Assembly (NCBI GenBank): GCA_965250285.1
Contig: OZ252299.1
Coordinates: forward strand, 192,001 to 256,000
Direction of reading: 5' to 3'
Length of the DNA: 64,000 bases
From: Myxococcota bacterium
GTDB lineage: Bacteria > Myxococcota_A > UBA9160 > UBA4427
Positions within the stretch are counted from its first letter, which is position 1. Every line of letters starts with the position of its first letter. The notes beneath the pieces were generated by a model. It saw only the letters and a program-made list of their open reading frames with translations, was not told where the DNA came from and made no database searches. This document shows, piece after piece, positions 39,181-57,010 of the stretch. The translations under genes and the position numbers were made by a program.

Positions 39181-41517
39181 TCAGTCACTCTGCGCCGCAC
39201 CGCCCGAGCCGAAGCGGGGCGGCGGTTCGGGCAGGCGCAGCAGGAGCGCCGCGAGGAGCGTCACGTCGGCGAGCAGGCAGAGCACCATCACGCTGCCGGT
39301 CAGCCAGCCGAGGTTGCGCGTGATCGCGAACTCTGAGAATGCGAAGAGCCCGAAGGCCGCGGTGAGCATGAGCGTGCTCGCGGTCACCGGCGGCAGCACC
39401 TCGCCCAGACAGCGACGCAGGGCGTCGACGGGGGCGAGGCCCGCGCTTCGCGCGACGACGAACGTGGTCGTCACGTGGATCGTGTCGTCGACCGCGATGC
39501 CGAGGGCGAGGCTCCCCATGACGACGGTGCCGGCGTCGATGGGAATGCCGAGCAGGCCCATGAACCCGAAGATGATCACGAGCGGGATCGCGTTTGGGAC
39601 GAGCGCGACCGCCGCGAGGCGCGGCCAGCGGAAAATCGCGAACAGGATCAGAGAGATCACGGCGAACGCGACCGCGAGGCCGCTCAGCTGGCCGTAGGCG
39701 ATGGCCTCCTGCGCGCGGGCGAACTCGTACATGATGCCGGTGGGCGTCGCGGTCGTGCCCGCGACGCCGTGCTCGCTCCACCAGGTGCGCGCATGGCCCG
39801 CCAGCTCGACGAGCTGTGCCGAGGCGTTGTCGTCGACGCGGAGAATCACGTTCGCCGTCTCTCGACCGGGCGTGATCACGTCGTGGATCATCTCGACCGA
39901 CTCGAGCATCAGCATGTACTGCGCTGCGAGCATGCGGCTGTCGGGCAAGGGCTGACTCGCGTCGTCCAGAAAGCCGCCGTGGATCTGTCGCAGCGGGTCG
40001 GCGACCGAGATCGCCTTGCCGACCTCGATGCGCTGATCGAGGTGCGCCGTCAAGCCGTCGATGGCACGCAGCACGTCGGGCTCGAGCACGGAGCCGCCTG
40101 GCTCGGCCTCGATCACCACGTTCATCGGGCTGATGCCGGAAAGCTCGGCGCGGATGGACTCGTACGCGTCGCGCACGGGATGCCCGATCGGGAGCCAGCG
40201 TGTCGCGTCGGTCTCGACGTCGACCGAGCCGAGCCCGAGCGCGACGAGCCCGGCCACGAGGGCCCAGACCCCGCCCACCCAGGCGGCGCGTCGATCGGCG
40301 AGGCGCGCGAGCGTCGCGGCGACCGGACCGCGCAGGCCGCCGACGAGTCGCGGCGGACGATCGGGCAGCGGGCGCAGGCAGAGCGCGGCCGGGACGAGGG
40401 TGAGCGTCGCGAACGTCACCGTCAGCACGCCGAGCGCGCCGAAAACGCCCGTGGCCCAGACCACCTCGATGCGAACCAGCGTCAGCGCAAGAAAACCGAC
40501 GACGGTCGTGAGGCCCGAGAGGGCGATCGGCAGCGTCACCGGGTCGAGCGCGTCGGCGAGCCCCGCCCGGGCGCGCACGCCACTGGCCGCCGTGAGGACG
40601 TGCATCGCATAAGCGCATCCGAGCGCGAGAATCGTCGACGGCAGCACCATCGTCGAGATCGACAGCGAGGATCCGACCCACCCCATGGCCGAGACGCTCA
40701 CCCACACGCCGGCCAGGCCGGGCAACAGACAGAGCAGCACGGCCAGGGCCGAGCGGAACATCCACAGCAGGAAGCCCCCGATCACGAGGGCGGTCAGCGG
40801 CGCGAACGTGAGGATCTCGCCCCCGGTTCGCTGATTCGCTTCGACCCGAAAGACGGGCACGCCCGACACCCGCGCGCCGATCGGGTCGGCGAGCGCATAG
40901 ACCTGCTCGAGGAGCCGGGCCTGTCGATCGGCCGCATCGGCTTCGAGGATCAGGTTGAGCGCGAAGGTGCGACCGTCGGCCGAGACCAGGCTGTCGGGCA
41001 GGATGCGGTCGCGGCCGGCGAGTCGGCGCGCACGCTCGGTCGCGGTCAGAAGATCGTGGCCGCCCGGATCGAACGCGGGATCGAGATGCAGCGTGCCTTC
41101 GACGTCGACGTCGATGACGGGCAGGCTCGCCACGCTGTCGACGCGGGCGACGCCTTCGAGGGTCTCGAAGCGCTCGCTCAGGTGCGCGACCCGGTCGAGT
41201 GTCTCGGGTGCCCAGGCTGGCTCGGCGGTGAGCGCGACGACGATCAGCTCGTCGCCGCCGAACAGGGTCTGGCTCTCCTGATAGACCGCCCACTCGGCGC
41301 CGCGATGATCGAGCACGCTGTCGGTCGAGGTGTCGACGCGCAGCCAGAGGAGCCCGGGCGAGAGGGCGATCAGAGCGAGCAGCCAGCCGACGATCGTGAC
41401 GGCCGGCCGGCGCATGGCGGCGCGGGTCAGGCCGCGCGGCAGCCGCGAGCGCGCAGCGAGCCAGGGCGGCGCGGCGCCGGGCCGCTCGCCTTCGGCTTCC
41501 GAATGCGCGTCGCTCAC
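39181..41517 (-). CDS. MMPL/RND-superfamily lipid transporter
   Basis: Two repeats of TM, periplasmic loop and 5 TM; FGGDE, SGLTTVVGF, LGIAVDDTIH; GTG start inferred (ORF track starts at 41550). Confidence 0.92.
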   Translation of the reverse strand: MSDAHSEAEGERPGAAPPWLAARSRLPRGLTRAAMRRPAVTIVGWLLALIALSPGLLWLRVDTSTDSVLDHRGAEWAVYQESQTLFGGDELIVVALTAEPAWAPETLDRVAHLSERFETLEGVARVDSVASLPVIDVDVEGTLHLDPAFDPGGHDLLTATERARRLAGRDRILPDSLVSADGRTFALNLILEADAADRQARLLEQVYALADPIGARVSGVPVFRVEANQRTGGEILTFAPLTALVIGGFLLWMFRSALAVLLCLLPGLAGVWVSVSAMGWVGSSLSISTMVLPSTILALGCAYAMHVLTAASGVRARAGLADALDPVTLPIALSGLTTVVGFLALTLVRIEVVWATGVFGALGVLTVTFATLTLVPAALCLRPLPDRPPRLVGGLRGPVAATLARLADRRAAWVGGVWALVAGLVALGLGSVDVETDATRWLPIGHPVRDAYESIRAELSGISPMNVVIEAEPGGSVLEPDVLRAIDGLTAHLDQRIEVGKAISVADPLRQIHGGFLDDASQPLPDSRMLAAQYMLMLESVEMIHDVITPGRETANVILRVDDNASAQLVELAGHARTWWSEHGVAGTTATPTGIMYEFARAQEAIAYGQLSGLAVAFAVISLILFAIFRWPRLAAVALVPNAIPLVIIFGFMGLLGIPIDAGTVVMGSLALGIAVDDTIHVTTTFVVARSAGLAPVDALRRCLGEVLPPVTASTLMLTAAFGLFAFSEFAITRNLGWLTGSVMVLCLLADVTLLAALLLRLPEPPPRFGSGGAAQSD

Positions 41518-41694
41518 GAGGCGGCCTCCCGCCGGCTGCGGATGCCGCACCCGTCGAGCCCCACCGCCACTGCGTGGGCGCGACGGCGCAGGGCGTGGGC
41601 GGGATCCGTCGTGTGCGGGGGTTTCGCAGCGATCTGAGGAGGCTCCCGGCGGTGAATTGGACCGCCTCTCGAGCGTGCAAGCGGCGCCAGAAAA

Positions 41695-41741
41695 TGGCGA
41701 TGCCGTTGCGAATTCGCAACTTATGATTCAACACGTTGATT
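41695..41741. promoter_or_regulatory. Regulatory cluster: sigma54-like motif, perfect 16-bp palindrome and IHF consensus site
   Basis: TGGCGATGCCGTTGCG (41695-41710, GG-N10-GC); GTTGCGAATTCGCAAC (41705-41720); minus-strand AATCAACGTGTTG (41729-41741) fits WATCAANNNNTTR. Confidence 0.55.
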
Positions 41742-42082: not shown

Positions 42083-44608
42083 ATGCTGGACCGGTCCGAC
42101 CGGATCGCTGACGACGCGTTGCGCGGGCTTCACCCCTCGGCGATCCGAGGGGACGAGGCCGTTCGCGGCGTGCTCGAGCGCGCCCGCCTGGCCGGCGCGA
42201 TCTTTCACCGAGGCCTCAACGCCCGGGTCGACCTCGAGACGGCCGAGCTGCTCGGGCTCGCCGGCGATCGACTGGTGCTCCGAACCCACGGCTTCGACCG
42301 GCGCCCGCGCCGTCAGGTCTTTCTGAACTTCGAGCTCGACGGGCGCCCCTACTTCTTCGCGACCGAGCCGCTCGAGTCGGTCGATGCCGGACGACTCGTC
42401 GTCGCGATGCCGAGCGCGATCTATTTCACCGAGCGCCGCGATCGTCACCGCGCTGCGCCGATCCCCGATCGCGGTGATCCGAGCCGGGTCGAGCTGAGTG
42501 CGCATGGGGATGCCTGGGTCGAGGCGCGCGTCGCCGACATCTCCGCCGGTGGACTCGGGCTCGAGGTCGAGAGCGACGGCCCGCTGAACGGCACCGGTGT
42601 GGCGGGCCAGGACGACGTCGCGATTCGCTTCGTCGACGGTCGACGTGCGGGCGAGTGGACCCGCGCGCGTGTCCGCAACCGCGGCGCCGACGAGCATCGG
42701 CCGGGCTGGACGCGCATCGGCCTGACCGAGGGCGCGGCGCGCGCGACACAGCTGATCGCGGTCGATCGACGCAGCGACGTCGTCGGCGGGCTCGAGGCGG
42801 CCGAGCCGGCGCGACACGGCGCCGACGAAGTCACCACGCGCATCGCCAGCCCCGAGATCGAGGTTGCCCGCTTCCTCGAAGCCGGCGGCCGCGAGATCGT
42901 GGCCCTGGTCGATTCGACGGGCCCGCGCGCGGGCGGTACGGCCGTGATCCTGCAGAACGGGTGGGGGCAGACCAAGGAGGCGCTGCTGCCCCTCGCCCGC
43001 ACCCTCGTCACGACCTTCGGCGCCCACGATGAGCCGCTCACGGTGCTGCGATTCGATGGCGTCCAGAAGCGCGGCGAGAGCGAGAAGGATGCGCCGAGTC
43101 GGATCCCCGGCCGCGAGTGCCACCGCTTCGTGTTCTCGCAGGGGGTGGCCGACCTTCAGGCGTGTGTCGACTACCTCCAGGCCGACCCCGATCGACGACC
43201 CGACCGAATCTTCGTCGTGAGCTTCAGCGCCGGTGCGATCGAGGCCCGCAAGGCGGTCGCGCTCGACCGCGGCGCGCGCATCGACGGCTGGATCAGCGTG
43301 GTGGGGGCGCCCGACCTGCAGTCGATGACCCGCAGCATCTCGGGCGGCGTCGACTTCGTCGCGGGCTTCGAGCGCGGCCTGCGCTTCGGCCGCCAGGAGC
43401 TGCTCGGCGTCGAGGTCGACATCGACCTGCTGGCGCCCGACGCCGCCGAGCTCGGCGTGCTCCACATCGAAGATGCCCGGGCCGATCTCGCGTCGATCGG
43501 CGTGCCGATCGTGTGGATCCACGGCCAGCACGACGCATGGATCAGCCTCGACCGGGTCCGCGACGTGCTCTCGTACGGCGACACGTCACGGCGCAAGCTG
43601 ATGCTGTTGCCCATCGCCCATCGCCTCGAGACCAGTCGACAGGCGAGTGAGACCTTCCGGCTGATCGCCCACGAGCTCGCGGCGATGTCGCTCGGGCGCA
43701 GCCTCGAGCCCGTTGCGCCCGAAGCGCGCGACGTGCGCGCGAGACGGCGCGTCGAACGCACGCGTCGTCCGCGCCCGGGCACCGATCTGCGCGCGTTCTG
43801 GAAGGACTATCTGGTCGGGCGAGACGGCTCGGTCGGGATCGAGCTGATGACCGCGTGCAGCGACTATCGCCTGCTGATGGCCGAGCAGATCGATGCGCTC
43901 GAGCTGCAGGGGGGCGAGCGGATCGCCGATCTCGGCTGCGGCACGGGTTCCCTCGTGATGGAGCTGGCGCGTCGGGCCGATCGACCCGAAGGCCTGCACG
44001 TCTTCGGCTTCGACTACGTGCGAGACGCGCTCGCGCGGGGCCGGGCGCGCTTCGATGCGACGGGCCCGCACGGAGATCTGAGGCTGAACCTCACCGAAGC
44101 CAACCTCGACGTCGGCGCGGGGCCGCTCGGCGTGCCGGCCCCGACCGGCGCCTTCGACTGCGTGATGGCGTCGCTGCTGCTCAGCTACGTCGAGCGGCCG
44201 GCCGTGCTGCTCGACGAGATGCTGCGCATCCTGCGCCCGGGCGGCACGCTCGTGCTCTCTTCGCTGCGGCGCGACGCCGACATCTCGCGGCTCTACGTCG
44301 AGAGCCTGGCCGAGATGCAGGTGGGCGATGCCGCCGCCGCGCTGCCCGAGCTCGGTGCGGTCGGGCTCGACCGGGTCGCGCGCAACTTCCTGAACGACGC
44401 CGCCCGGATCCTCGAGTTCGAGGAGCAGGGGGCCTTCGCTTTCTGGGAGCCCGACGAGCTCGTCGACATGCTCGCCCGAGCCGGGTTCCGAGACGTCGAG
44501 ACCCGCCTCGCGTTCGGGACGCCCGCCCAGGCGGTCGTGGTGCGCGCGCAGCGCCCGGCGGCCGTGCTGGTGCGCCCAGCGACGAGCGAGCGCGCCTACG
44601 GCACCTGA
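42083..44608 (+). CDS. PilZ-domain / LuxD-like acyl-ACP thioesterase / class I SAM methyltransferase fusion protein
   Basis: PilZ RxxxR (ERRDRHR) and DxSxxG (DISAGG); alpha/beta-hydrolase VSFSAG, HDAW, AHRL; methyltransferase ADLGCGTG and LRILRPGG. Confidence 0.85.
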   Translation: MLDRSDRIADDALRGLHPSAIRGDEAVRGVLERARLAGAIFHRGLNARVDLETAELLGLAGDRLVLRTHGFDRRPRRQVFLNFELDGRPYFFATEPLESVDAGRLVVAMPSAIYFTERRDRHRAAPIPDRGDPSRVELSAHGDAWVEARVADISAGGLGLEVESDGPLNGTGVAGQDDVAIRFVDGRRAGEWTRARVRNRGADEHRPGWTRIGLTEGAARATQLIAVDRRSDVVGGLEAAEPARHGADEVTTRIASPEIEVARFLEAGGREIVALVDSTGPRAGGTAVILQNGWGQTKEALLPLARTLVTTFGAHDEPLTVLRFDGVQKRGESEKDAPSRIPGRECHRFVFSQGVADLQACVDYLQADPDRRPDRIFVVSFSAGAIEARKAVALDRGARIDGWISVVGAPDLQSMTRSISGGVDFVAGFERGLRFGRQELLGVEVDIDLLAPDAAELGVLHIEDARADLASIGVPIVWIHGQHDAWISLDRVRDVLSYGDTSRRKLMLLPIAHRLETSRQASETFRLIAHELAAMSLGRSLEPVAPEARDVRARRRVERTRRPRPGTDLRAFWKDYLVGRDGSVGIELMTACSDYRLLMAEQIDALELQGGERIADLGCGTGSLVMELARRADRPEGLHVFGFDYVRDALARGRARFDATGPHGDLRLNLTEANLDVGAGPLGVPAPTGAFDCVMASLLLSYVERPAVLLDEMLRILRPGGTLVLSSLRRDADISRLYVESLAEMQVGDAAAALPELGAVGLDRVARNFLNDAARILEFEEQGAFAFWEPDELVDMLARAGFRDVETRLAFGTPAQAVVVRAQRPAAVLVRPATSERAYGT

Positions 44609-44699: not shown

Positions 44700-47435
44700 A
44701 TGCCGGACCGCACCCGCGACGAGGCCACCCAGCGCCGCGCGCTGTATCGCGAATTTCGCGAGATGACCGAGGGCAAGCCCCTCGTCGACTCGCTGCGCAA
44801 CGCCGCCCTGATCTTCGGTGCCCTGCAGACGATCTTCTTCATCCCGGCCGACTGGCTGCTCTTTCCGGATCAGTTCTCGTTCTTCCTCAAGGCGCGCCTC
44901 GCCGAGAATGCGCTGCTCGCGCTCGTCTACTTTCAGATCGCGAAGCGGGCGCCGGTCGCCGGCGCCGCGCTGGTCATGTGGTCGGGCGCGGCGCTCTTCC
45001 TCGCGATGGTGCACGCCACCGGGGGCGTCGAGAGCGGCTACTACGTCGGGCTGATCCTGATCGTCATCGGCATGGGGGTGCTCGCGCCGATCTCGGCGAC
45101 CCAGGCGAGCTGGATCAACGGGCTGATCTTCGCCGGCTACACCGCCGTGCCCTTCATCAGTCACGGCACGAGCGAGCCGATCGCCTGGCCGACCTTCGCG
45201 ATGCACGCGTTCTTTCTCGTCACGGCGTGCTTCGAGTCGATTCTCGCGTGCTTCCACATGGACCGCATGCGTTTTCAGGACTTCCTGCAGAAGCGCGAGA
45301 TCGAGCGTGCGCGGGACGAGCTCGCCGAGCTCGACCGGGCCAAGTCGCGCTTCTCGGCGAACGTGCACCACGAGCTGCGCACGCCGCTCACGCTGATCCT
45401 CGCGCCCCTCGATGCCCTGCGAGGCCGCGAGTTCGGTGAACTCTCCCGGGACGTGCGGCACGTGCTCGACACGATGCACGCGAACGGCCGCCGTCTCTAC
45501 AAGATGATCAACAACCTGCTCGACCTCTCGAAGCTCGAGAGTGACCAGCTCGAGGTCGTTCGGCGGCCGACGCATGTGGGTCGGTTGATTTCCGAGCTGG
45601 TCACCGCCGCGCAACCGCTCGCCGAGCGCAAGGGCGTCACGCTCGAGATCGCTGGCTTCGACGACGCACCCGAGCTGAACGTCGATCCCGAGGCGATCGA
45701 GAAGGTCTTCGTGAACCTCGTCGGCAACTCGCTGAAGTTCACCGAGCCGGGCGACCGCGTGCGCGTCGAAGCCGAGCGCATCGACGATGGCCTCGAGATC
45801 CGCGTGGTCGATACCGGCATCGGGATCCCACACGAGAAGGTCGACTCGATCTTCGACCGATTTGCCCAGGTCGACGGGTCGGTGACGCGCCGACACGAGG
45901 GCACCGGCATCGGTCTGGCCATCGCGCGCGAGATGGTCGAGCTGCACGGCGGTCGCATCGTCGCCGAAAGCGCGGGGCTCGGCGAGGGCACCACCGTGCG
46001 GGTCTGGCTGCCGCCCGGCCAATGCGACGCGAACGCCGAAGACGAGGTGCTGCAGACCGACAGCGGTTCGGTGCTCGGTCTCTCGCACTCGATCGAAGCG
46101 GTCGAAGCCGACCTCATGCTCGAGGCCGATGAAGCCGCCGCACACGGCGACGGCGCCGATCCGCGTCTCGATGACGTGGAGCGCACGGTCGAGCGCTACG
46201 AAGACGCCGAGATGGTGGCCGCACGCGGCGGCGTGAAGGGGCCCTCGGGCGAGGTCGCCGAGGTGTTGATCGCCGAGGACAACCCCGACATGCGGGCGCT
46301 GCTCGCGACGCTGGTGGGGCGGCACTACCGCGTGCGAGCTGCCCGGAACGGGCGCGAGGCGCTCGAGATGGCGCGCGAGCAGGCGCCCGATCTCGTCCTG
46401 TCCGACGTGATGATGCCCGAGATGTCGGGCACCGAGCTGTGCCAGGCGATCAAGTCGGATCCGTCGCTCGAGAATCTGCCCGTCGTGCTCGTGACCTCGA
46501 AGGCCGAAGACGAGATGAAGATCGAGGGGCTCGAGCTCGGTGCAGACGACTACGTCACCAAGCCGTTCCACCCGCGTGAGCTGCTCGCGCGCATCCACTC
46601 GCTCGTCCGCGTCAGCACGCTGCAGCGCGCGCTCGAGGGTCGCAACGATCAGCTCGAACGCACGCTCTCGGAGCTCAAGGAAGCCCAGGTCCAGCTCGTG
46701 AAGAGCGAGCGCCTCGCCGCCGTCGGTGAGCTGGCAGCGGGGATCGCCCACGAGGTCAACAACCCGGTCAACTTTGCCCTCAACGCAGCGCGGGCCATGC
46801 AGCTCTCGGTGGAAGAGCTCGATGACCTGGCCGAGTCGGACGGTGAGACCGCCAAGGAGCTGGCCGAAGCACAGGAGGTCGCCGAGACGATCCGCGAGCT
46901 GTCGGGGATCGTGAGTGAGGGGCTCAACCGCACGTCGGTGCTCGTCGCCGATCTGCGCGACTTCGCGTCGGGCAACCAGGGCAAGGCGCGCTCGACCGTC
47001 TCGCTCGAACGCGGCGTGCAATCGACCCTTCACCTGCTCGGTCGGGCCGCGTCCGATGCGGGCGTCGCGCTGGTGCCCGAGATTCAGGAGGGCGTGGCCT
47101 TCGTCGAGGGCGACGCCGGGGCGCTCAACCAGGTGATGCTGAACCTGGTGAAGAACGCGATCCAGGCGGTCGGCGAGGGCGGGCACATCGAGGTCGCGCT
47201 CTCGGGCGACGACGAGACCGTGCGGTTCACGGTGCGCGACGACGGGCCTGGCATCGACGAAGAGACGAGCCTTCGGCTCTTCGAGCCCTTCTTTACCACC
47301 AAGGCGCCGGGCGAGGGGACGGGTCTCGGTCTCTCGATCAGCCGGCAGATCGCGCGCGATCACGGCGGCGATCTCGACGTCGAGAGCACGCCCGGCGAAG
47401 GCGCGACCTTCACGCTGACCTTGCCGGCCATCTGA
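44700..47435 (+). CDS. Membrane hybrid histidine kinase: multi-TM sensor, HisKA/HATPase, REC, second HisKA/HATPase
   Basis: About 6 TM helices; HHELRTP, N/G boxes (NLVGNSLKF, DTGIG, GTGIGL); REC (IAEDN, SDVMMP, KPF); second AHEVNNP, NLVKNA, DDGPG, FFTTK, GTGLGL. Confidence 0.95.
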   Translation: MPDRTRDEATQRRALYREFREMTEGKPLVDSLRNAALIFGALQTIFFIPADWLLFPDQFSFFLKARLAENALLALVYFQIAKRAPVAGAALVMWSGAALFLAMVHATGGVESGYYVGLILIVIGMGVLAPISATQASWINGLIFAGYTAVPFISHGTSEPIAWPTFAMHAFFLVTACFESILACFHMDRMRFQDFLQKREIERARDELAELDRAKSRFSANVHHELRTPLTLILAPLDALRGREFGELSRDVRHVLDTMHANGRRLYKMINNLLDLSKLESDQLEVVRRPTHVGRLISELVTAAQPLAERKGVTLEIAGFDDAPELNVDPEAIEKVFVNLVGNSLKFTEPGDRVRVEAERIDDGLEIRVVDTGIGIPHEKVDSIFDRFAQVDGSVTRRHEGTGIGLAIAREMVELHGGRIVAESAGLGEGTTVRVWLPPGQCDANAEDEVLQTDSGSVLGLSHSIEAVEADLMLEADEAAAHGDGADPRLDDVERTVERYEDAEMVAARGGVKGPSGEVAEVLIAEDNPDMRALLATLVGRHYRVRAARNGREALEMAREQAPDLVLSDVMMPEMSGTELCQAIKSDPSLENLPVVLVTSKAEDEMKIEGLELGADDYVTKPFHPRELLARIHSLVRVSTLQRALEGRNDQLERTLSELKEAQVQLVKSERLAAVGELAAGIAHEVNNPVNFALNAARAMQLSVEELDDLAESDGETAKELAEAQEVAETIRELSGIVSEGLNRTSVLVADLRDFASGNQGKARSTVSLERGVQSTLHLLGRAASDAGVALVPEIQEGVAFVEGDAGALNQVMLNLVKNAIQAVGEGGHIEVALSGDDETVRFTVRDDGPGIDEETSLRLFEPFFTTKAPGEGTGLGLSISRQIARDHGGDLDVESTPGEGATFTLTLPAI

Positions 47436-47504: not shown

Positions 47505-48560
47505 ATGGCAGCGAAGAAGAAGAGCACCAAGAAGGCTTCGAAGAAGAAGGCGGCGAAGAAGAAGGCCGCGCGAAAGAAGACCGCGCGTCAGAAGACGGCG
47601 GCGCGCAAGAAGCTCGCCATCGCCAAGACGAGCAAGGGCCTCGCGCCGGGCGATCTCTCGCTCGGCGTCGAAGCGCCCGAGCTGGCGGGGCTGGTCAGCG
47701 AGATCGTCGGCCACGGCGGCGAGGCGCTGGGCGCGTACCGCGAGCCGCTCTCGGGTCGGCCGATGCTGCTCGCGGCGCTGCCGATCAAGTCGGTCGAGCC
47801 CACGCCGTTTCAGCGCGACCTGTCACCCACCCACACGAAGCGACTCGCGCAGAAGATCGAAGAGAGCGGATCGTTCCTCGACCCGATCATCGTGGTGCGC
47901 GGCGAAGACGGCCGTCTCTGGACGCCCAACGGTCGCCATCGTCTCGCGTCGGCGAAGGTGATCGGCCTGCAGTCGATCACCGCGCTCGTCTCGCCCGACG
48001 AAGACCTCGCCTTTCGCATTCTGGCGCTCAACACCGAGAAGGCGCACAACTTGAAGGACCGCAGCCTCGAGGTGATCCGGATGGCGCAGGAGCTCGCGCG
48101 CCGCCGGCCGCGCTCGCGCGAGACCGACTTTGCCGCCGAGTTCGAGGCGCCCGAGCTGCTGACGCTCGGCCTGATCTATCTCGAGAACGGCCGCTTCGCC
48201 GGCGGCGCCTACAGCCCGTTCCTGAAAAAGGTCGATCGCTTTCACACGAAGACGCTGCCGGCGAGCCTAAAGGAGCGCGAGGGCTACGCCGCGCGGCTGG
48301 TCGAGATCGACGGCGAGGTGAAGCGCATCATCGCCGAGCTGCAGGAGCGCGGGTTCAAATCGCCCTATCTGCGCAACTACGTCGTCGCGCGGATCAACCC
48401 GGTCCGCTTCCACCGGGCCAAGAAGGGCGAGACCGAGCCGCCGATGGCGATGAAGGCGGCGCTGATTCGCATGGCCGCGTCGGCGAAGAAGTTCGACGTC
48501 GCCGGCGTTCGCGAGCGCGATCTCGCGCTCGTGTCGGCCGCCGTGGGCGGGAGCGACTGA
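47505..48560 (+). CDS. ParB/Srx N-terminal-domain protein with histone-H1-like Lys/Ala-rich N-terminus
   Basis: AAKKKSTKKASKKKAAKKKAARKK tail; TPFQRD...DPIIVVR...PNGRHRL ParB-like motif. Confidence 0.8.
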   Translation: MAAKKKSTKKASKKKAAKKKAARKKTARQKTAARKKLAIAKTSKGLAPGDLSLGVEAPELAGLVSEIVGHGGEALGAYREPLSGRPMLLAALPIKSVEPTPFQRDLSPTHTKRLAQKIEESGSFLDPIIVVRGEDGRLWTPNGRHRLASAKVIGLQSITALVSPDEDLAFRILALNTEKAHNLKDRSLEVIRMAQELARRRPRSRETDFAAEFEAPELLTLGLIYLENGRFAGGAYSPFLKKVDRFHTKTLPASLKEREGYAARLVEIDGEVKRIIAELQERGFKSPYLRNYVVARINPVRFHRAKKGETEPPMAMKAALIRMAASAKKFDVAGVRERDLALVSAAVGGSD

Positions 48561-48564
48561 AGGC

Positions 48565-49077
48565 GTGTCGCCGCTGCGACTCAGCGTGATCCGCCACGCG
48601 AAGTCGAGCTGGAGCGACCCCGAGCTCGCCGATCACGATCGTCCGCTCAACAAGCGCGGACGTCGCGATGCACCCCGGATGGGTGAGCGCCTGCACGCTC
48701 GCGGATTCGCGCCCGACATCATCTTCACCAGCACGGCGCTGCGCGCACGGCTCACCGCCGACGCGATCGTTTCGGCCTGCGGGCTCGAATCGCGGGTGCG
48801 GGCACGGCGGGCGCTCTATCACGCCGAACCCGAAGAGATCCTCGACGTCGTCGAGGCGGGCGCAGCCGCGGCGGGGTCGCGACACGTCGCGATCGTCGGG
48901 CACAACCCCGGCTGCACCGAGCTCGTGGTGTGGCTCACGGGTGCCGACCTCGACAACCTGCCGACGTGTGGGGTGGCGACGGTGCGCATCGACGGCGAGC
49001 GCTACGCCGATGCGCGCAGAGGCGCGGGGCACCTCGAATCACTCGAGACGCCGAAGAACGATCCGCAACGCGCCTGA
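48565..49077 (+). CDS. sixA: SixA-like histidine phosphatase
   Basis: IRHAKSSW...DHDRPLNKRG, STALRA, VGHNP. Confidence 0.85.
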   Translation: MSPLRLSVIRHAKSSWSDPELADHDRPLNKRGRRDAPRMGERLHARGFAPDIIFTSTALRARLTADAIVSACGLESRVRARRALYHAEPEEILDVVEAGAAAAGSRHVAIVGHNPGCTELVVWLTGADLDNLPTCGVATVRIDGERYADARRGAGHLESLETPKNDPQRA

Positions 49078-55241: not shown

Positions 55242-55865
55242 TCAGCCGGGGCGCAGCTCGGCGGCGACCCAGTAGCGACCGGCGCCGTACTCGATGGTTG
55301 CGCCGGGCCGCCGCAGCAGCTCCGCGCCGAGTGGCGTCACGTGGAAGGACGCCAGCCAGCGCTCGAGCGCCCGGCGGAGGGTCGGCCAGAGCGTCGCGCC
55401 GTCGCCGAAGTCGCAGACGATGACTGCACCGCCCGGTGCGAGCTGGTCGAGGGCGTGGTCGATGGCCGTATCGGGTCGTTCGACCATCGAGAGGCAATAC
55501 GAGAACAGGACGCGATCGGGGGCGGCACCCAGCAGCGTGCGGTAGTCGGCGTTCTCGGCAAACCCGTCCATCAGCTGCACGCCGGGCAGGCGCTCGGCCG
55601 CGCGCTGCCGCATGACGCTGGACGGTTCGACGCCCCCGAATCGGGCTTCGGGCCGAAGGCCGCGGAGCACGTCGAGGTTGCGGCCCGTGCCGGGTCCGAT
55701 CTCGACGAGCCGCTCCCAGTCGGGATCGTCGGCGAGTCGACGCAGCGTCTCGTCGCGTCCGAGCAGGTAGTAGCGGCGCGTCACGTCGTAGATCGGCGCC
55801 GACCAGCCGTAGTAGCGGTCGAGGAACGCGCGCTGGGCCTCGAAGGCCTCACTCGCTGCGCTCAT
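55242..55865 (-). CDS. btaB: SAM-dependent N-methyltransferase of betaine lipid (DGTS) synthesis
   Basis: YY.W...IYDVTRRYYLLGRD, EIGPGTGRNL, FSYCLSM, CDFG, WLASFHV; overlaps btaA. Confidence 0.85.
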   Translation of the reverse strand: MSAASEAFEAQRAFLDRYYGWSAPIYDVTRRYYLLGRDETLRRLADDPDWERLVEIGPGTGRNLDVLRGLRPEARFGGVEPSSVMRQRAAERLPGVQLMDGFAENADYRTLLGAAPDRVLFSYCLSMVERPDTAIDHALDQLAPGGAVIVCDFGDGATLWPTLRRALERWLASFHVTPLGAELLRRPGATIEYGAGRYWVAAELRPG

Positions 55866-57010
55866 GCGTGGATCCGGTAGAAGTCGACGCGTCGGTACAG
55901 AGCGCTGCGATCGAGGTGGGTTGCCTCATCGCTCTCCGCGTCCATGCGAACGAGGTGGTCGCCGTAGCCGAGCGACTCCACCACGGGTTCCCGGGCGACC
56001 GAGCGCACGAGCATGACGCCGCCCTCGCGTCCGGTGCGCAGCACCTCGTCGAAGAGTCGCTTCTTCGTCGGCCCCGACATCCAGTCGGGGGCATCGCAGA
56101 AGCTGAAGTGACTCCAGGTGTTCGGGCCGGCCTCGCCGAGGACGTCGAACAGATTCCCGAGGTGGAAACGGGTCTCGGTCGGCGACTCGAGGCTGCGTTC
56201 GTGATGCGCTCGGCGGAGGTAGGGTGGTACCGCCTGCGGGTCTTCGTGGTTGAACGCGCCCGTCACGATGTACCAGGCGAACCAGTTGCGCGCGAGGTCG
56301 GTCTCGGCCAGCCGGTACATCGTCTTCTTGAACGCCGCCATCACGCTGTCGCCCGGATCGTCGAGCTCTTCGTCGAGATAGCGATCGCGCTGCTGACTGT
56401 TGACGCCGAGCGAGAAGTACTGGAGCGGCGAGCCCATGAACGCACGGAACCAGGGACGCTCGAGCACCGGCGCAATCCACTCATCGATCGCCTCGATCCG
56501 CTTGGCGAGGGGCAGCTCGACGACGCCACGGAACCACGCCGCGTCGACGCCACACTGGTCGCGGAAGAACGCGAGCATGCGCGCCGTCAGGCCGGTGCGA
56601 TAGAGCGATCGTTCGAAGAGGTCGTGATTGCGCTTCCAATGGCGCTGCATCCAGCGCGGAAGGCCGTCGGCGAGATCGCGCACGATCTTCTCAGGGGTCG
56701 GATGCCAGCCCCGGCCGAACAGATCGTAGAAGTCGCCGTACGAGCGCATTCGCCGGGCTGCGGTGGCCTTGAGCGCAGCCAGCGCGAGGTGGTGGCGATT
56801 GATGTCGACTGCGTCGATGCGTCGCGGGTGCGCGCCCAACATCCCCGCAACGCCGCAACCAGCGGCCGAGATGGCCAGCACGCTCGACTCCGTGTCGAGG
56901 CCCATGTGCCGCTCGTCGAGCTCGGCGTCCTCCCAGAGCATGTTGTAGACGAACACGTGCGCGAAGGTGTGCTGAAAGGCGCGGTCCTTCAGCTGCATGT
57001 CGAAGTTCAC
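55862..57010 (-). CDS. btaA: DUF3419 / SAM:diacylglycerol 3-amino-3-carboxypropyltransferase
   Basis: VYNMLWED...D, ISAAGC, AVDIN..HL.L..LK, NWFAW, PPYL, DAPDWM, DRSALY. Confidence 0.88.
   Translation of the reverse strand: MNFDMQLKDRAFQHTFAHVFVYNMLWEDAELDERHMGLDTESSVLAISAAGCGVAGMLGAHPRRIDAVDINRHHLALAALKATAARRMRSYGDFYDLFGRGWHPTPEKIVRDLADGLPRWMQRHWKRNHDLFERSLYRTGLTARMLAFFRDQCGVDAAWFRGVVELPLAKRIEAIDEWIAPVLERPWFRAFMGSPLQYFSLGVNSQQRDRYLDEELDDPGDSVMAAFKKTMYRLAETDLARNWFAWYIVTGAFNHEDPQAVPPYLRRAHHERSLESPTETRFHLGNLFDVLGEAGPNTWSHFSFCDAPDWMSGPTKKRLFDEVLRTGREGGVMLVRSVAREPVVESLGYGDHLVRMDAESDEATHLDRSALYRRVDFYRIHA

What the first reader, a model, noticed from the sequence alone, without database searches (positions are those of the whole stretch)
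44700..47435. Hybrid kinase resembling PhcS fused to PhcR (sensor-HK-REC-HK)
Seen: a membrane-embedded sensor with no large periplasmic loop (DWLLFP...FL.ARL, GG.ESGYYVGL.L, FFL...RMRFQDF), then two complete transmitter modules (His at about 45369 and 46749) flanking one receiver (Asp at about 46404). Established: PhcR is a receiver plus kinase-like output protein encoded after PhcS, and intramembrane sensors typically detect hydrophobic ligands. Inference: the sensor motifs resemble my recollection of PhcS-family sensors, so this may be the cognate receptor for the upstream enzyme's product. No output regulator is adjacent.
Basis: partly seen in the sequence, partly recalled or inferred. Interest (0 to 1): 0.7.

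Follow-up and report, generated by a model that had tools for sequence, protein, structure and literature searches.

The report
Double kinase sensing homemade lipid signal
A membrane sensor related to the Ralstonia cell-density receptor PhcS is joined to two intact kinase units around one switch domain and is encoded right after a three-part enzyme predicted to release a fatty acid and methylate it, so this uncultured bacterium likely makes and senses its own, still unidentified, lipid signal.

Summary
The 911-aa protein is six-helix sensor, HK1 (His224), receiver (Asp569), HK2 (His684), with catalytic boxes conserved.

The sensor is a true PhcS relative: reciprocal sole hits between this genome and five Burkholderiaceae genomes, HHalign 99.1%.

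It is not PhcS fused to PhcR. HK2, not HK1, is the PhcS-class kinase, and the receiver is unlike PhcR's. The HK-REC-HK layout is that of Leptospira LvrA.

A REC-GAF-HK with a PhcR-class receiver lies directly downstream in 49 of 91 relatives, but 1.3 Mb away here.

The upstream gene (PilZ, LuxD-like thioesterase, SAM methyltransferase) precedes the kinase within 5.5 kb in 68 of 76 genomes carrying both. It is not PhcB, yet true PhcB-family enzymes fill the same slot elsewhere.

Best reading: a Phc-like lipid-autoinducer module with a swapped, probably c-di-GMP-gated synthase. No chemistry has been tested. The scan noted this module before on other DNA (e1-9895621). New variant of a known kind.

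The parts
44700..47435 (+). Hybrid kinase, 911 aa: PhcS-type sensor, HK1, REC, HK2
44745..45308 (+). Six-helix membrane sensor homologous to the PhcS sensor; D51, R66, S112 and Y114 are conserved across the family; fold like the 6TM anchors of ImcA and adenylyl cyclases
45339..46016 (+). HK1: HisKA (His224 at 45369, HELRTP box) and ATP-binding domain (end approximate); not PhcS-class
46263..46595 (+). Receiver: Asp569 at 46404, Lys621; followed by a linker to His684 whose length varies in steps of seven
46680..47432 (+). HK2: His684 at 46749 (HEVNNPVNF, the same box as Cupriavidus and Paraburkholderia PhcS) and ATP-binding domain 804-910
42083..44608 (+). Candidate signal synthase, 841 aa. PilZ domain: R119, R123 and G157 in 68 of 68 rows, D152 in 67. 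LuxD-like alpha/beta hydrolase: S382 at 43226, D484 at 43532, H513 at 43619, each in 68 of 68. Class I SAM methyltransferase: D616-x-G618-x-G620-x-G622 in 68 of 68. It ends 91 bp before the kinase start.
39181..41550 (-). MMPL/RND-family transporter, divergent here; candidate lipid exporter; present in 27 of 41 compared loci

Best explanation
The protein is a PhcS-related membrane sensor carrying two intact kinase units around one receiver, and it likely detects a lipid autoinducer, probably a fatty-acid methyl ester, predicted to be made by the enzyme encoded just upstream. Step 1 (inferred from fold and triad): the LuxD-like domain releases an acyl chain from acyl-ACP and the SAM domain methylates it, under likely c-di-GMP control through the PilZ domain. 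Step 2 (inferred from linkage): the MMPL protein may move the lipid out. Step 3 (homology shown, binding inferred): the ligand binds inside the six-helix bundle and changes HK1 autophosphorylation at His224. Step 4 (inferred from LvrA and LvrB): HK1 phosphorylates Asp569, which allosterically switches on HK2, and HK2 autophosphorylates His684 from its own ATP site. Step 5 (inferred from linkage in relatives): phosphate passes to the PhcR-class receiver of the REC-GAF-HK at G000:C1:1578798-1580861. The final transcriptional output is unknown.
For: Sensor: a profile from 79 PhcS sensors hits only this ORF among 41,598 six-frame ORFs of the genome (E 3.3e-9); HHalign 99.1%, E 1.2e-18 over 180 columns. 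The reverse profile finds only PhcS as a significant hit in 5 of 5 Burkholderiaceae genomes (E 3.5e-20 to 8.1e-19). The reference operons match published residue anchors: PhcB R22 in 8 of 8 Ralstonia loci, PhcS L161 in 4 of 7 (M in 3), PhcQ R154 in 6 of 7. The sensor fold matches 6TM anchors: ImcA Z 15.9, rmsd 2.5 over 182; adenylyl cyclases Z 14.6 and 14.4, which act as lipid receptors (PMC11606603 abstract). Enzyme: top fold match is LuxD 1THT, Z 29.6, rmsd 2.6 over 276, next 25.7; the top Atlas cluster is Acyl_transf_2. Linkage: 76 of 79 enzyme-bearing genomes carry the sensor, and 68 of 76 have the enzyme upstream on the same strand within 5.5 kb. Slot exchange: of 32 distant sensor-HK1-REC loci, 11 have this enzyme and 16 a PhcB-family enzyme upstream; of 20 further full-layout loci, 17 have PhcB and 1 this enzyme. 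Background: 2 of 38 kinase ORFs of the own genome have an upstream methyltransferase, one being this kinase. Receiver-to-His2 spacing is 63 (48 rows) or 70 (19) in the class set and 42 (16) or 63 (3) in distant loci, multiples of seven apart, as reported for receiver-controlled kinases (PMC13269768).
Against: No ligand, product or phosphotransfer has been measured. The enzyme is not a PhcB orthologue: the PhcB profile misses it in the genome scan, and HHalign joins only the SAM core (89.9%, 121 columns). Identity to LuxD is 17%, and feruloyl esterases and lipases score Z about 25, so esterase or acyltransferase chemistry remains open. The methyl acceptor is unknown; PDB hits include N-, O- and C-methyltransferases. 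The same sensor family also sits on cyclases, a GGDEF protein and other kinases, several with no synthase detected nearby (2,267 representatives at E up to 0.001). Of 32 distant loci 2 have no recognisable synthase (L255, L259); of 20 further loci 2 have none detected (L282, L285). The REC-GAF-HK occurs in 36 genomes where the sensor query found nothing. Loci were picked by score and contig length, and kin are not independent.
Confidence: 0.6

Rival explanations
1. Cell-internal lipid or envelope control. The enzyme edits or recycles acyl chains, MMPL traffics them, and the kinase monitors the cell's own membrane lipid rather than a shared cell-density signal.
For: Desaturase, cyclopropane-synthase, AurF-like and P450 genes occur beside some loci. 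MMPL is in 27 of 41 loci. 6TM anchors can sense ordinary fatty acids.
Against: The known autoinducer synthase family PhcB fills the same slot in 16 of 32 and 17 of 20 distant loci, often in the order synthase, kinase, PhcR-like. The accessory lipid genes are not conserved.
Confidence: 0.18
2. The pair is a signalling system, but the product is not a methyl ester. The hydrolase acts as an acyltransferase or as an esterase that clears signal, and the SAM domain methylates N, C or a hydroxyl.
For: Only the SAM core resembles PhcB. Ester hydrolases follow LuxD closely. Other enzymes can occupy the slot: a multi-PilZ protein with a small methyltransferase (L239, L253) and a type I polyketide synthase (L257).
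Against: LuxD stands about 4 Z units above the esterases. The two domains are fused in nearly all homologues long enough to show it, which fits release followed by methylation. Exchange with PhcB suggests a similar product.
Confidence: 0.13
3. One reading: a PhcS-PhcR gene fusion running a His1-Asp-His2 phosphorelay.
For: The layout equals a sensor kinase plus a receiver-kinase. HK2 is also the top own-genome hit of the PhcR kinase profile, though weakly (57.6 vs 56.8 bits).
Against: HK1 is not PhcS-class and the receiver is not PhcR-class. PhcR cores form a separate long branch in both trees. Separate PhcR-class REC-HK genes sit beside the kinase in 21 of 32 distant loci. HK2 keeps a complete ATP site.
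Confidence: 0.04
4. The sensor is controlled by a partner protein or a non-lipid cue, and the linkage reflects co-regulation. From memory, the structural neighbour ImcA is controlled by an iron-binding partner; this is recalled and comes from no call.
For: ImcA is the closest solved structure.
Against: The full-length sequence relative is PhcS; ImcA matches by sequence only over profile positions 3-68. The conserved upstream neighbours are enzymes.
Confidence: 0.05

Closest known systems
Phc quorum sensing (phcB-phcS-phcR-phcQ, PhcA) of Ralstonia, with homologues in Cupriavidus and Paraburkholderia
   Same: Homologous sensor; PhcS-class kinase core (HK2); a SAM-dependent enzyme directly upstream; a PhcR-class REC-HK linked in relatives.
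   Different: An extra HK1-REC unit lies inside the receptor. The synthase here is PilZ-thioesterase-methyltransferase, not PhcB. An MMPL transporter is linked. The partner has a GAF domain and is unlinked in this genome. PhcQ and PhcA equivalents were not searched for.
LvrA-LvrB of pathogenic Leptospira (PMC5863495, PMC13269768)
   Same: HK-REC-HK protein followed by a REC-HK. NF047465 (LvrA) is the best NCBIfam match. Receiver-controlled kinase mechanism with heptad-length linker.
   Different: LvrA is cytoplasmic with a PAS input. The score of 295 bits is far below the cut-off of 1200. No synthase is described with it in the passages read.
LuxD, myristoyl-ACP thioesterase of Vibrio harveyi (PDB 1THT)
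   Same: Best fold match of the enzyme's middle domain; a Ser-Asp-His triad is invariant in the homologues.
   Different: 17% identity; fused to PilZ and methyltransferase domains; none of the recurring neighbour families scanned was a lux gene.
6TM receptors CqsS and LqsS, and adenylyl-cyclase anchors (PMC4821796, PMC11606603); ImcA (PDB 8WCN)
   Same: Six short helices, no large outer loop; lipophilic ligands for CqsS, LqsS and the mammalian cyclases.
   Different: No direct sequence test against CqsS or LqsS was possible. From memory their synthases are PLP enzymes (recalled).
Myxococcus xanthus MXAN_2606 and PixB (MXAN_2604)
   Same: MXAN_2606 is described as an uncharacterised orphan HK-RR-HK whose insertion mutants aggregate poorly yet are enriched in spores, like asgA. 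Two locus tags away lies PixB, a c-di-GMP-binding PilZ-PilZ-acetyltransferase.
   Different: Its sequence could not be fetched, so any PhcS-type sensor is untested. This is a lead only.

Membership tests
Phc quorum sensing | PhcS-type membrane sensor | tested here: met
Phc quorum sensing | PhcS-class kinase core directly behind the sensor | tested here: not met
   HK1 is another class; the PhcS-class core is HK2, behind HK1-REC
Phc quorum sensing | PhcB-family methyltransferase as synthase | tested here: not met
   No hit on this enzyme and none significant in the genome (best E 0.026). Met in relatives L086, L098, L096, L097 and in 33 distant loci
Phc quorum sensing | PhcR-type REC-HK partner | tested here: inconclusive
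   A REC-GAF-HK with a PhcR-class receiver (72-92 bits in 15 rows) exists, but its kinase core does not group with PhcR and it is unlinked here
Phc quorum sensing | PhcQ and the LysR regulator PhcA | not tested
   no search made
Phc quorum sensing | Methyl 3-hydroxy fatty-acid ester signal, density dependent | not testable with these tools
   needs chemistry
LvrA (NF047465) | HK-REC-HK with both histidines and the aspartate | tested here: met
LvrA (NF047465) | PAS input, no transmembrane helices, score above 1200 | tested here: not met
   six helices; 295 bits
Receiver-controlled histidine kinase (LvrB, PhcR) | Receiver joined to DHp by a heptad-length helix; intact ATP site | tested here: met
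   spacings 42, 63 and 70; boxes conserved
LuxD / Acyl_transf_2 | LuxD-like fold with Ser-Asp-His triad | tested here: met
LuxD / Acyl_transf_2 | Sequence match to Pfam PF02273 | tested here: not met
   only weak Hydrolase_4 and DLH hits; Atlas lead only
MASE8 (PF20968) | Score above the curated cut-off | tested here: inconclusive
   no hit for this sensor in the scans; weak hits in 8 of 38 relatives; a precomputed hit from a later Pfam version is listed
CqsS / LqsS / VsrA / PhcK sensors | Sequence similarity of the sensor | tested here: inconclusive
   No kinase model of NCBIfam matched any of 38 sensors at E up to 0.1, and no second sensor rang in the Ralstonia genomes. It was not checked that those models or genes are present.

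The most novel reading that the evidence does not exclude
A widespread family of lipid-autoinducer systems in Myxococcota-type bacteria is built on one double-kinase receptor with interchangeable, PilZ-bearing (c-di-GMP-gated) synthases: thioesterase-methyltransferase, PhcB-type, a multi-PilZ enzyme, perhaps a polyketide synthase. Ralstonia PhcS would be a short form lacking HK1-REC. The cheater-like Myxococcus xanthus kinase MXAN_2606 near pixB could be the model-organism member.
Probability: 0.3. Interest if true: 0.82.

Novelty: new variant of a known kind. Interest (0 to 1): 0.6.

Why it matters
In the papers found, fatty-acid-methyl-ester quorum sensing is described only for Ralstonia and close relatives. 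Here a PhcS-type sensor appears in 133 of 401 genomes sampled from another phylum, usually wired as a two-stage kinase in the loci examined. It is paired with a synthase for which no paper was found. A self-contained thioesterase-methyltransferase is easy to test in E. coli. It would give a new signal molecule, a direct c-di-GMP-to-autoinducer link, and possibly a one-protein route to fatty-acid methyl esters. The receptor offers a natural single-chain test of the receiver-controlled kinase mechanism just solved for LvrB.

Tried and rejected
PhcS-PhcR fusion: rejected.

HK2 as a direct PhcS orthologue: unresolved. FastTree joined PhcS to this class's HK2 (support 99, long branch). IQ-TREE with more rows joined PhcS to HK2 of five other sensor-HK1-REC-HK2 proteins (SH-aLRT 99) and left this protein's HK2 unplaced. 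The direction, insertion or loss, is unknown.

A sigma-54-like site at 41695: seen in 0 of 33 related upstream regions (4 of 440 in background), so not conserved. No sigma-70 match.

Single-sequence PDB searches with the sensor and hydrolase: nothing significant. MASE8 genome scan: rang nowhere, controls included.

Attempts to reach a Myxococcus-like genome to test MXAN_2606 failed: the EspC marker found 0 of 201, and family, order, class and phylum scans showed no such group that I could recognise. The PixB paper's supplement named no neighbours; bioRxiv supplements are closed and may hold more on MXAN_2606.

No RNA holder was listed; this is no evidence either way. No complex prediction was sent.

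The careful sensor tree did not finish. The quick tree needs 8 changes for the thioesterase label and 5 for PhcB, at least 3 forced by starred branches; this suggests repeated synthase swaps but no test of co-evolution was run.

Literature searches that found no description of this system, judged from listings. The library lacks most subscription papers.

Full report
OBSERVATION. The ORF at 44700-47435 encodes 911 aa. His224, Asp569 and His684 sit at 45369, 46404 and 46749. Pfam finds two HisKA, two HATPase_c and one receiver. The first 203 residues fold into six long helices with short loops (pLDDT 94.5). Catalytic residues of both kinases and the receiver are kept in 68-73 of 73 aligned homologues (T599 in 64, S in 6); misses include truncated or frameshifted rows. 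Homologues carry the source names Myxococcota, Myxococcales or Deltaproteobacteria bacterium, so the host is taken as an uncultured Myxococcota-type bacterium. The tools give no class name.

REFERENCE SET. Two independent plasmid searches met at one Paraburkholderia operon: a PilZ-methyltransferase from a related locus and the sensor itself, E 0.3, hit adjacent genes. That methyltransferase retrieved 80 loci, the best of 329, mostly Paraburkholderia, Cupriavidus and Ralstonia, with the order methyltransferase, kinase, REC-HK, REC in those printed. They match published anchors: PhcB R22 in 8 of 8 Ralstonia loci, PhcQ R154 in 6 of 7 (one row mis-started), PhcS L161 in 4 of 7 (PMC6989110 passages). 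They are environmental relatives, not the characterised strains.

SENSOR. The PhcS sensor profile hits one ORF among 41,598 in the own genome, this one (E 3.3e-9). HHalign gives 99.1% over 180 columns. The reverse profile finds only PhcS in 5 of 5 genomes. Across 35 diverse sensors, including three PhcS, one Arg is invariant and an Asp, a Ser and a Tyr are nearly so. The fold matches ImcA (Z 15.9, rmsd 2.5, 182 aligned) and adenylyl-cyclase anchors (Z 14.6, 14.4); these are helical bundles, so the margin over chance is modest. Such anchors bind lipids (PMC11606603, abstract only) and can be swapped with CqsS (PMC4821796, passages).

KINASE WIRING. HK2 is the PhcS-like core (rank 1, 135.6 bits, narrowly; 37% identity) and HK1 is not (rank 30). 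The receiver is not PhcR-like (rank 31 of 46 rows). One tree joined PhcS with this class's HK2. A second joined it with HK2 of five other proteins of the same layout and left this HK2 unplaced. Both keep PhcR apart. The layout is that of LvrA, the best NCBIfam match but far below cut-off. LvrA is proposed to autophosphorylate its first His and pass phosphate to its own Asp or to LvrB (PMC5863495, passages). Receiver phosphorylation switches on LvrB through a coiled coil whose length favours multiples of seven (PMC13269768, passages). Here the receiver-to-His2 spacing is 63 or 70 in the class set and 42 or 63 in distant loci. I infer an allosteric two-stage kinase rather than a His-Asp-His relay.

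PARTNER. A REC-GAF-HK whose receiver scores 72-92 bits on the PhcR profile, against 18-31 for the kinase's own receiver, overlaps the kinase stop codon in several relatives. It is found in 127 of 225 class genomes and lies directly downstream in 49 of the 91 that have both. In this genome it is at C1:1578798-1580861, together with other usual neighbours, so the cluster was split. It also occurs in 36 genomes without a sensor hit.

UPSTREAM ENZYME. 42083-44608 encodes PilZ, hydrolase and methyltransferase domains. The model (pLDDT 87.3) matches LuxD best by Foldseek and VIA-align (Z 29.6). The triad S382-D484-H513, the SAM motif and the PilZ RxxxR are invariant in 68 of 68 rows, and DxSxxG nearly so. 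The triad also holds in 11 distant copies. That these PilZ motifs bind c-di-GMP is established knowledge, not tested here. The enzyme is not PhcB. Its PilZ resembles the N-terminal domain of the phylum's PhcB-family proteins (HHalign 93%), which resembles that of Burkholderiaceae PhcB (74%); the direct comparison is not significant.

LINKAGE. In 225 class genomes the sensor is found in 97 and the hydrolase in 79; 76 have both. Of these, 35 are adjacent, 33 have about one gene between, 3 are otherwise arranged on one contig and 5 are on different contigs. The gene between is the MMPL transporter in the fetched loci where it was called; MMPL is in 27 of 41 loci. Four class loci without this enzyme carry PhcB-family methyltransferases instead (E 4e-38 to 8e-20), with a cyclopropane synthase or desaturase nearby.

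In the phylum the sensor profile hits 133 of 401 genomes. Of 40 distant loci picked by score and contig length, 32 are sensor-HK1-REC, 31 of them with HK2. Upstream lie this enzyme (11), PhcB (16), a multi-PilZ protein plus small methyltransferase (2), a polyketide synthase (1) or nothing recognisable (2); 21 have a PhcR-class REC-HK. The other 8 carry the sensor on cyclases, a GGDEF protein or other kinases. In 30 more loci, 20 have the full layout (one split by frameshifts): 17 with PhcB, 1 with this enzyme, 2 with none detected. Five loci lacking HK2 had no adjacent synthase hit. In the own genome 2 of 38 kinase ORFs have an upstream methyltransferase. Kin are not independent, so these are counts, not a statistical test. 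The tally 67 of 151 includes unpublished genome G694; no claim here rests on it.

VERDICT. It works like Phc, at about 0.6. It is not a member, because the synthase and the receptor layout fail the defining tests. The protein layout is known (LvrA; MXAN_2606 is called an orphan HK-RR-HK in bioRxiv 10.64898/2026.08.28.747804, passages). Its pairing with a LuxD-like thioesterase-methyltransferase was not found in print. Also read as passages: PMC7694676, PMC8316039 with its supplement search, PMC13320629. Earlier notes of this scan reached a similar reading on other genomes; I saw them after my own tests and do not count them as support.

Noticed in passing
window 48565-49077 (+) and 47505-48560 (+): A SixA-like phosphohistidine phosphatase (TIGR00249, 47 bits, below the cut-off 74.5) and a lysine-rich ParB_N-weak protein follow the kinase. 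They are seen in 6 and 4 of 41 loci, all close relatives. The phosphatase could tune the two phospho-His sites.
   Followed up: partly
window 41695-41720: A sigma-54-like -24/-12 motif overlaps a 16-bp palindrome in an AT-richer patch between the divergent MMPL and enzyme genes; the motif was not found in 33 relatives.
   Followed up: yes
L223:6315-9191 (-), L244:4066-8860 (-): A PhcS-type sensor on an adenylate/guanylate cyclase with a cNMP-binding domain, fused (L223) or adjacent (L244) to a PhcB-family methyltransferase: receptor, second messenger and candidate synthase in one unit.
   Followed up: partly
L257:8934-15659 (-): A 2,242-aa type I polyketide synthase lies directly upstream of a sensor-HK1-REC kinase, in the synthase slot.
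   Followed up: no
L239:9766-12186 (-), L253:9198-11654 (-): PilZ proteins of 807 and 819 aa with an unassigned C-terminal domain (GNAT-like by eye only; no Pfam or NCBIfam hit), with a 265-aa methyltransferase, next to the kinase; reminiscent of PixB. Found in 7 of 301 genomes.
   Followed up: partly
G000:C1:1575870-1588839 (L190): The other half of the cluster seen in relatives: PrmA, epimerase, kinase-dCMP deaminase fusion, REC-GAF-HK, a 216-aa unknown and an acyl-CoA ligase.
   Followed up: partly
L070:3753-6710 (+) and 18 other loci: A winged-helix AAA regulator of about 1,000 aa lies near the module in 19 of 41 loci; a candidate transcriptional output.
   Followed up: no
L249 and L283: Several tandem PhcS-type sensor kinases lie beside one synthase, which suggests receptor arrays for related signals.
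   Followed up: no
window 55242-57010 (-): A methyltransferase plus DUF3419 pair; from memory the betaine-lipid BtaB/BtaA genes (recalled label).
   Followed up: no
L063, L295, G126, G178: Frameshifts or stops in the kinase or enzyme of some relatives; decay or assembly errors.
   Followed up: no
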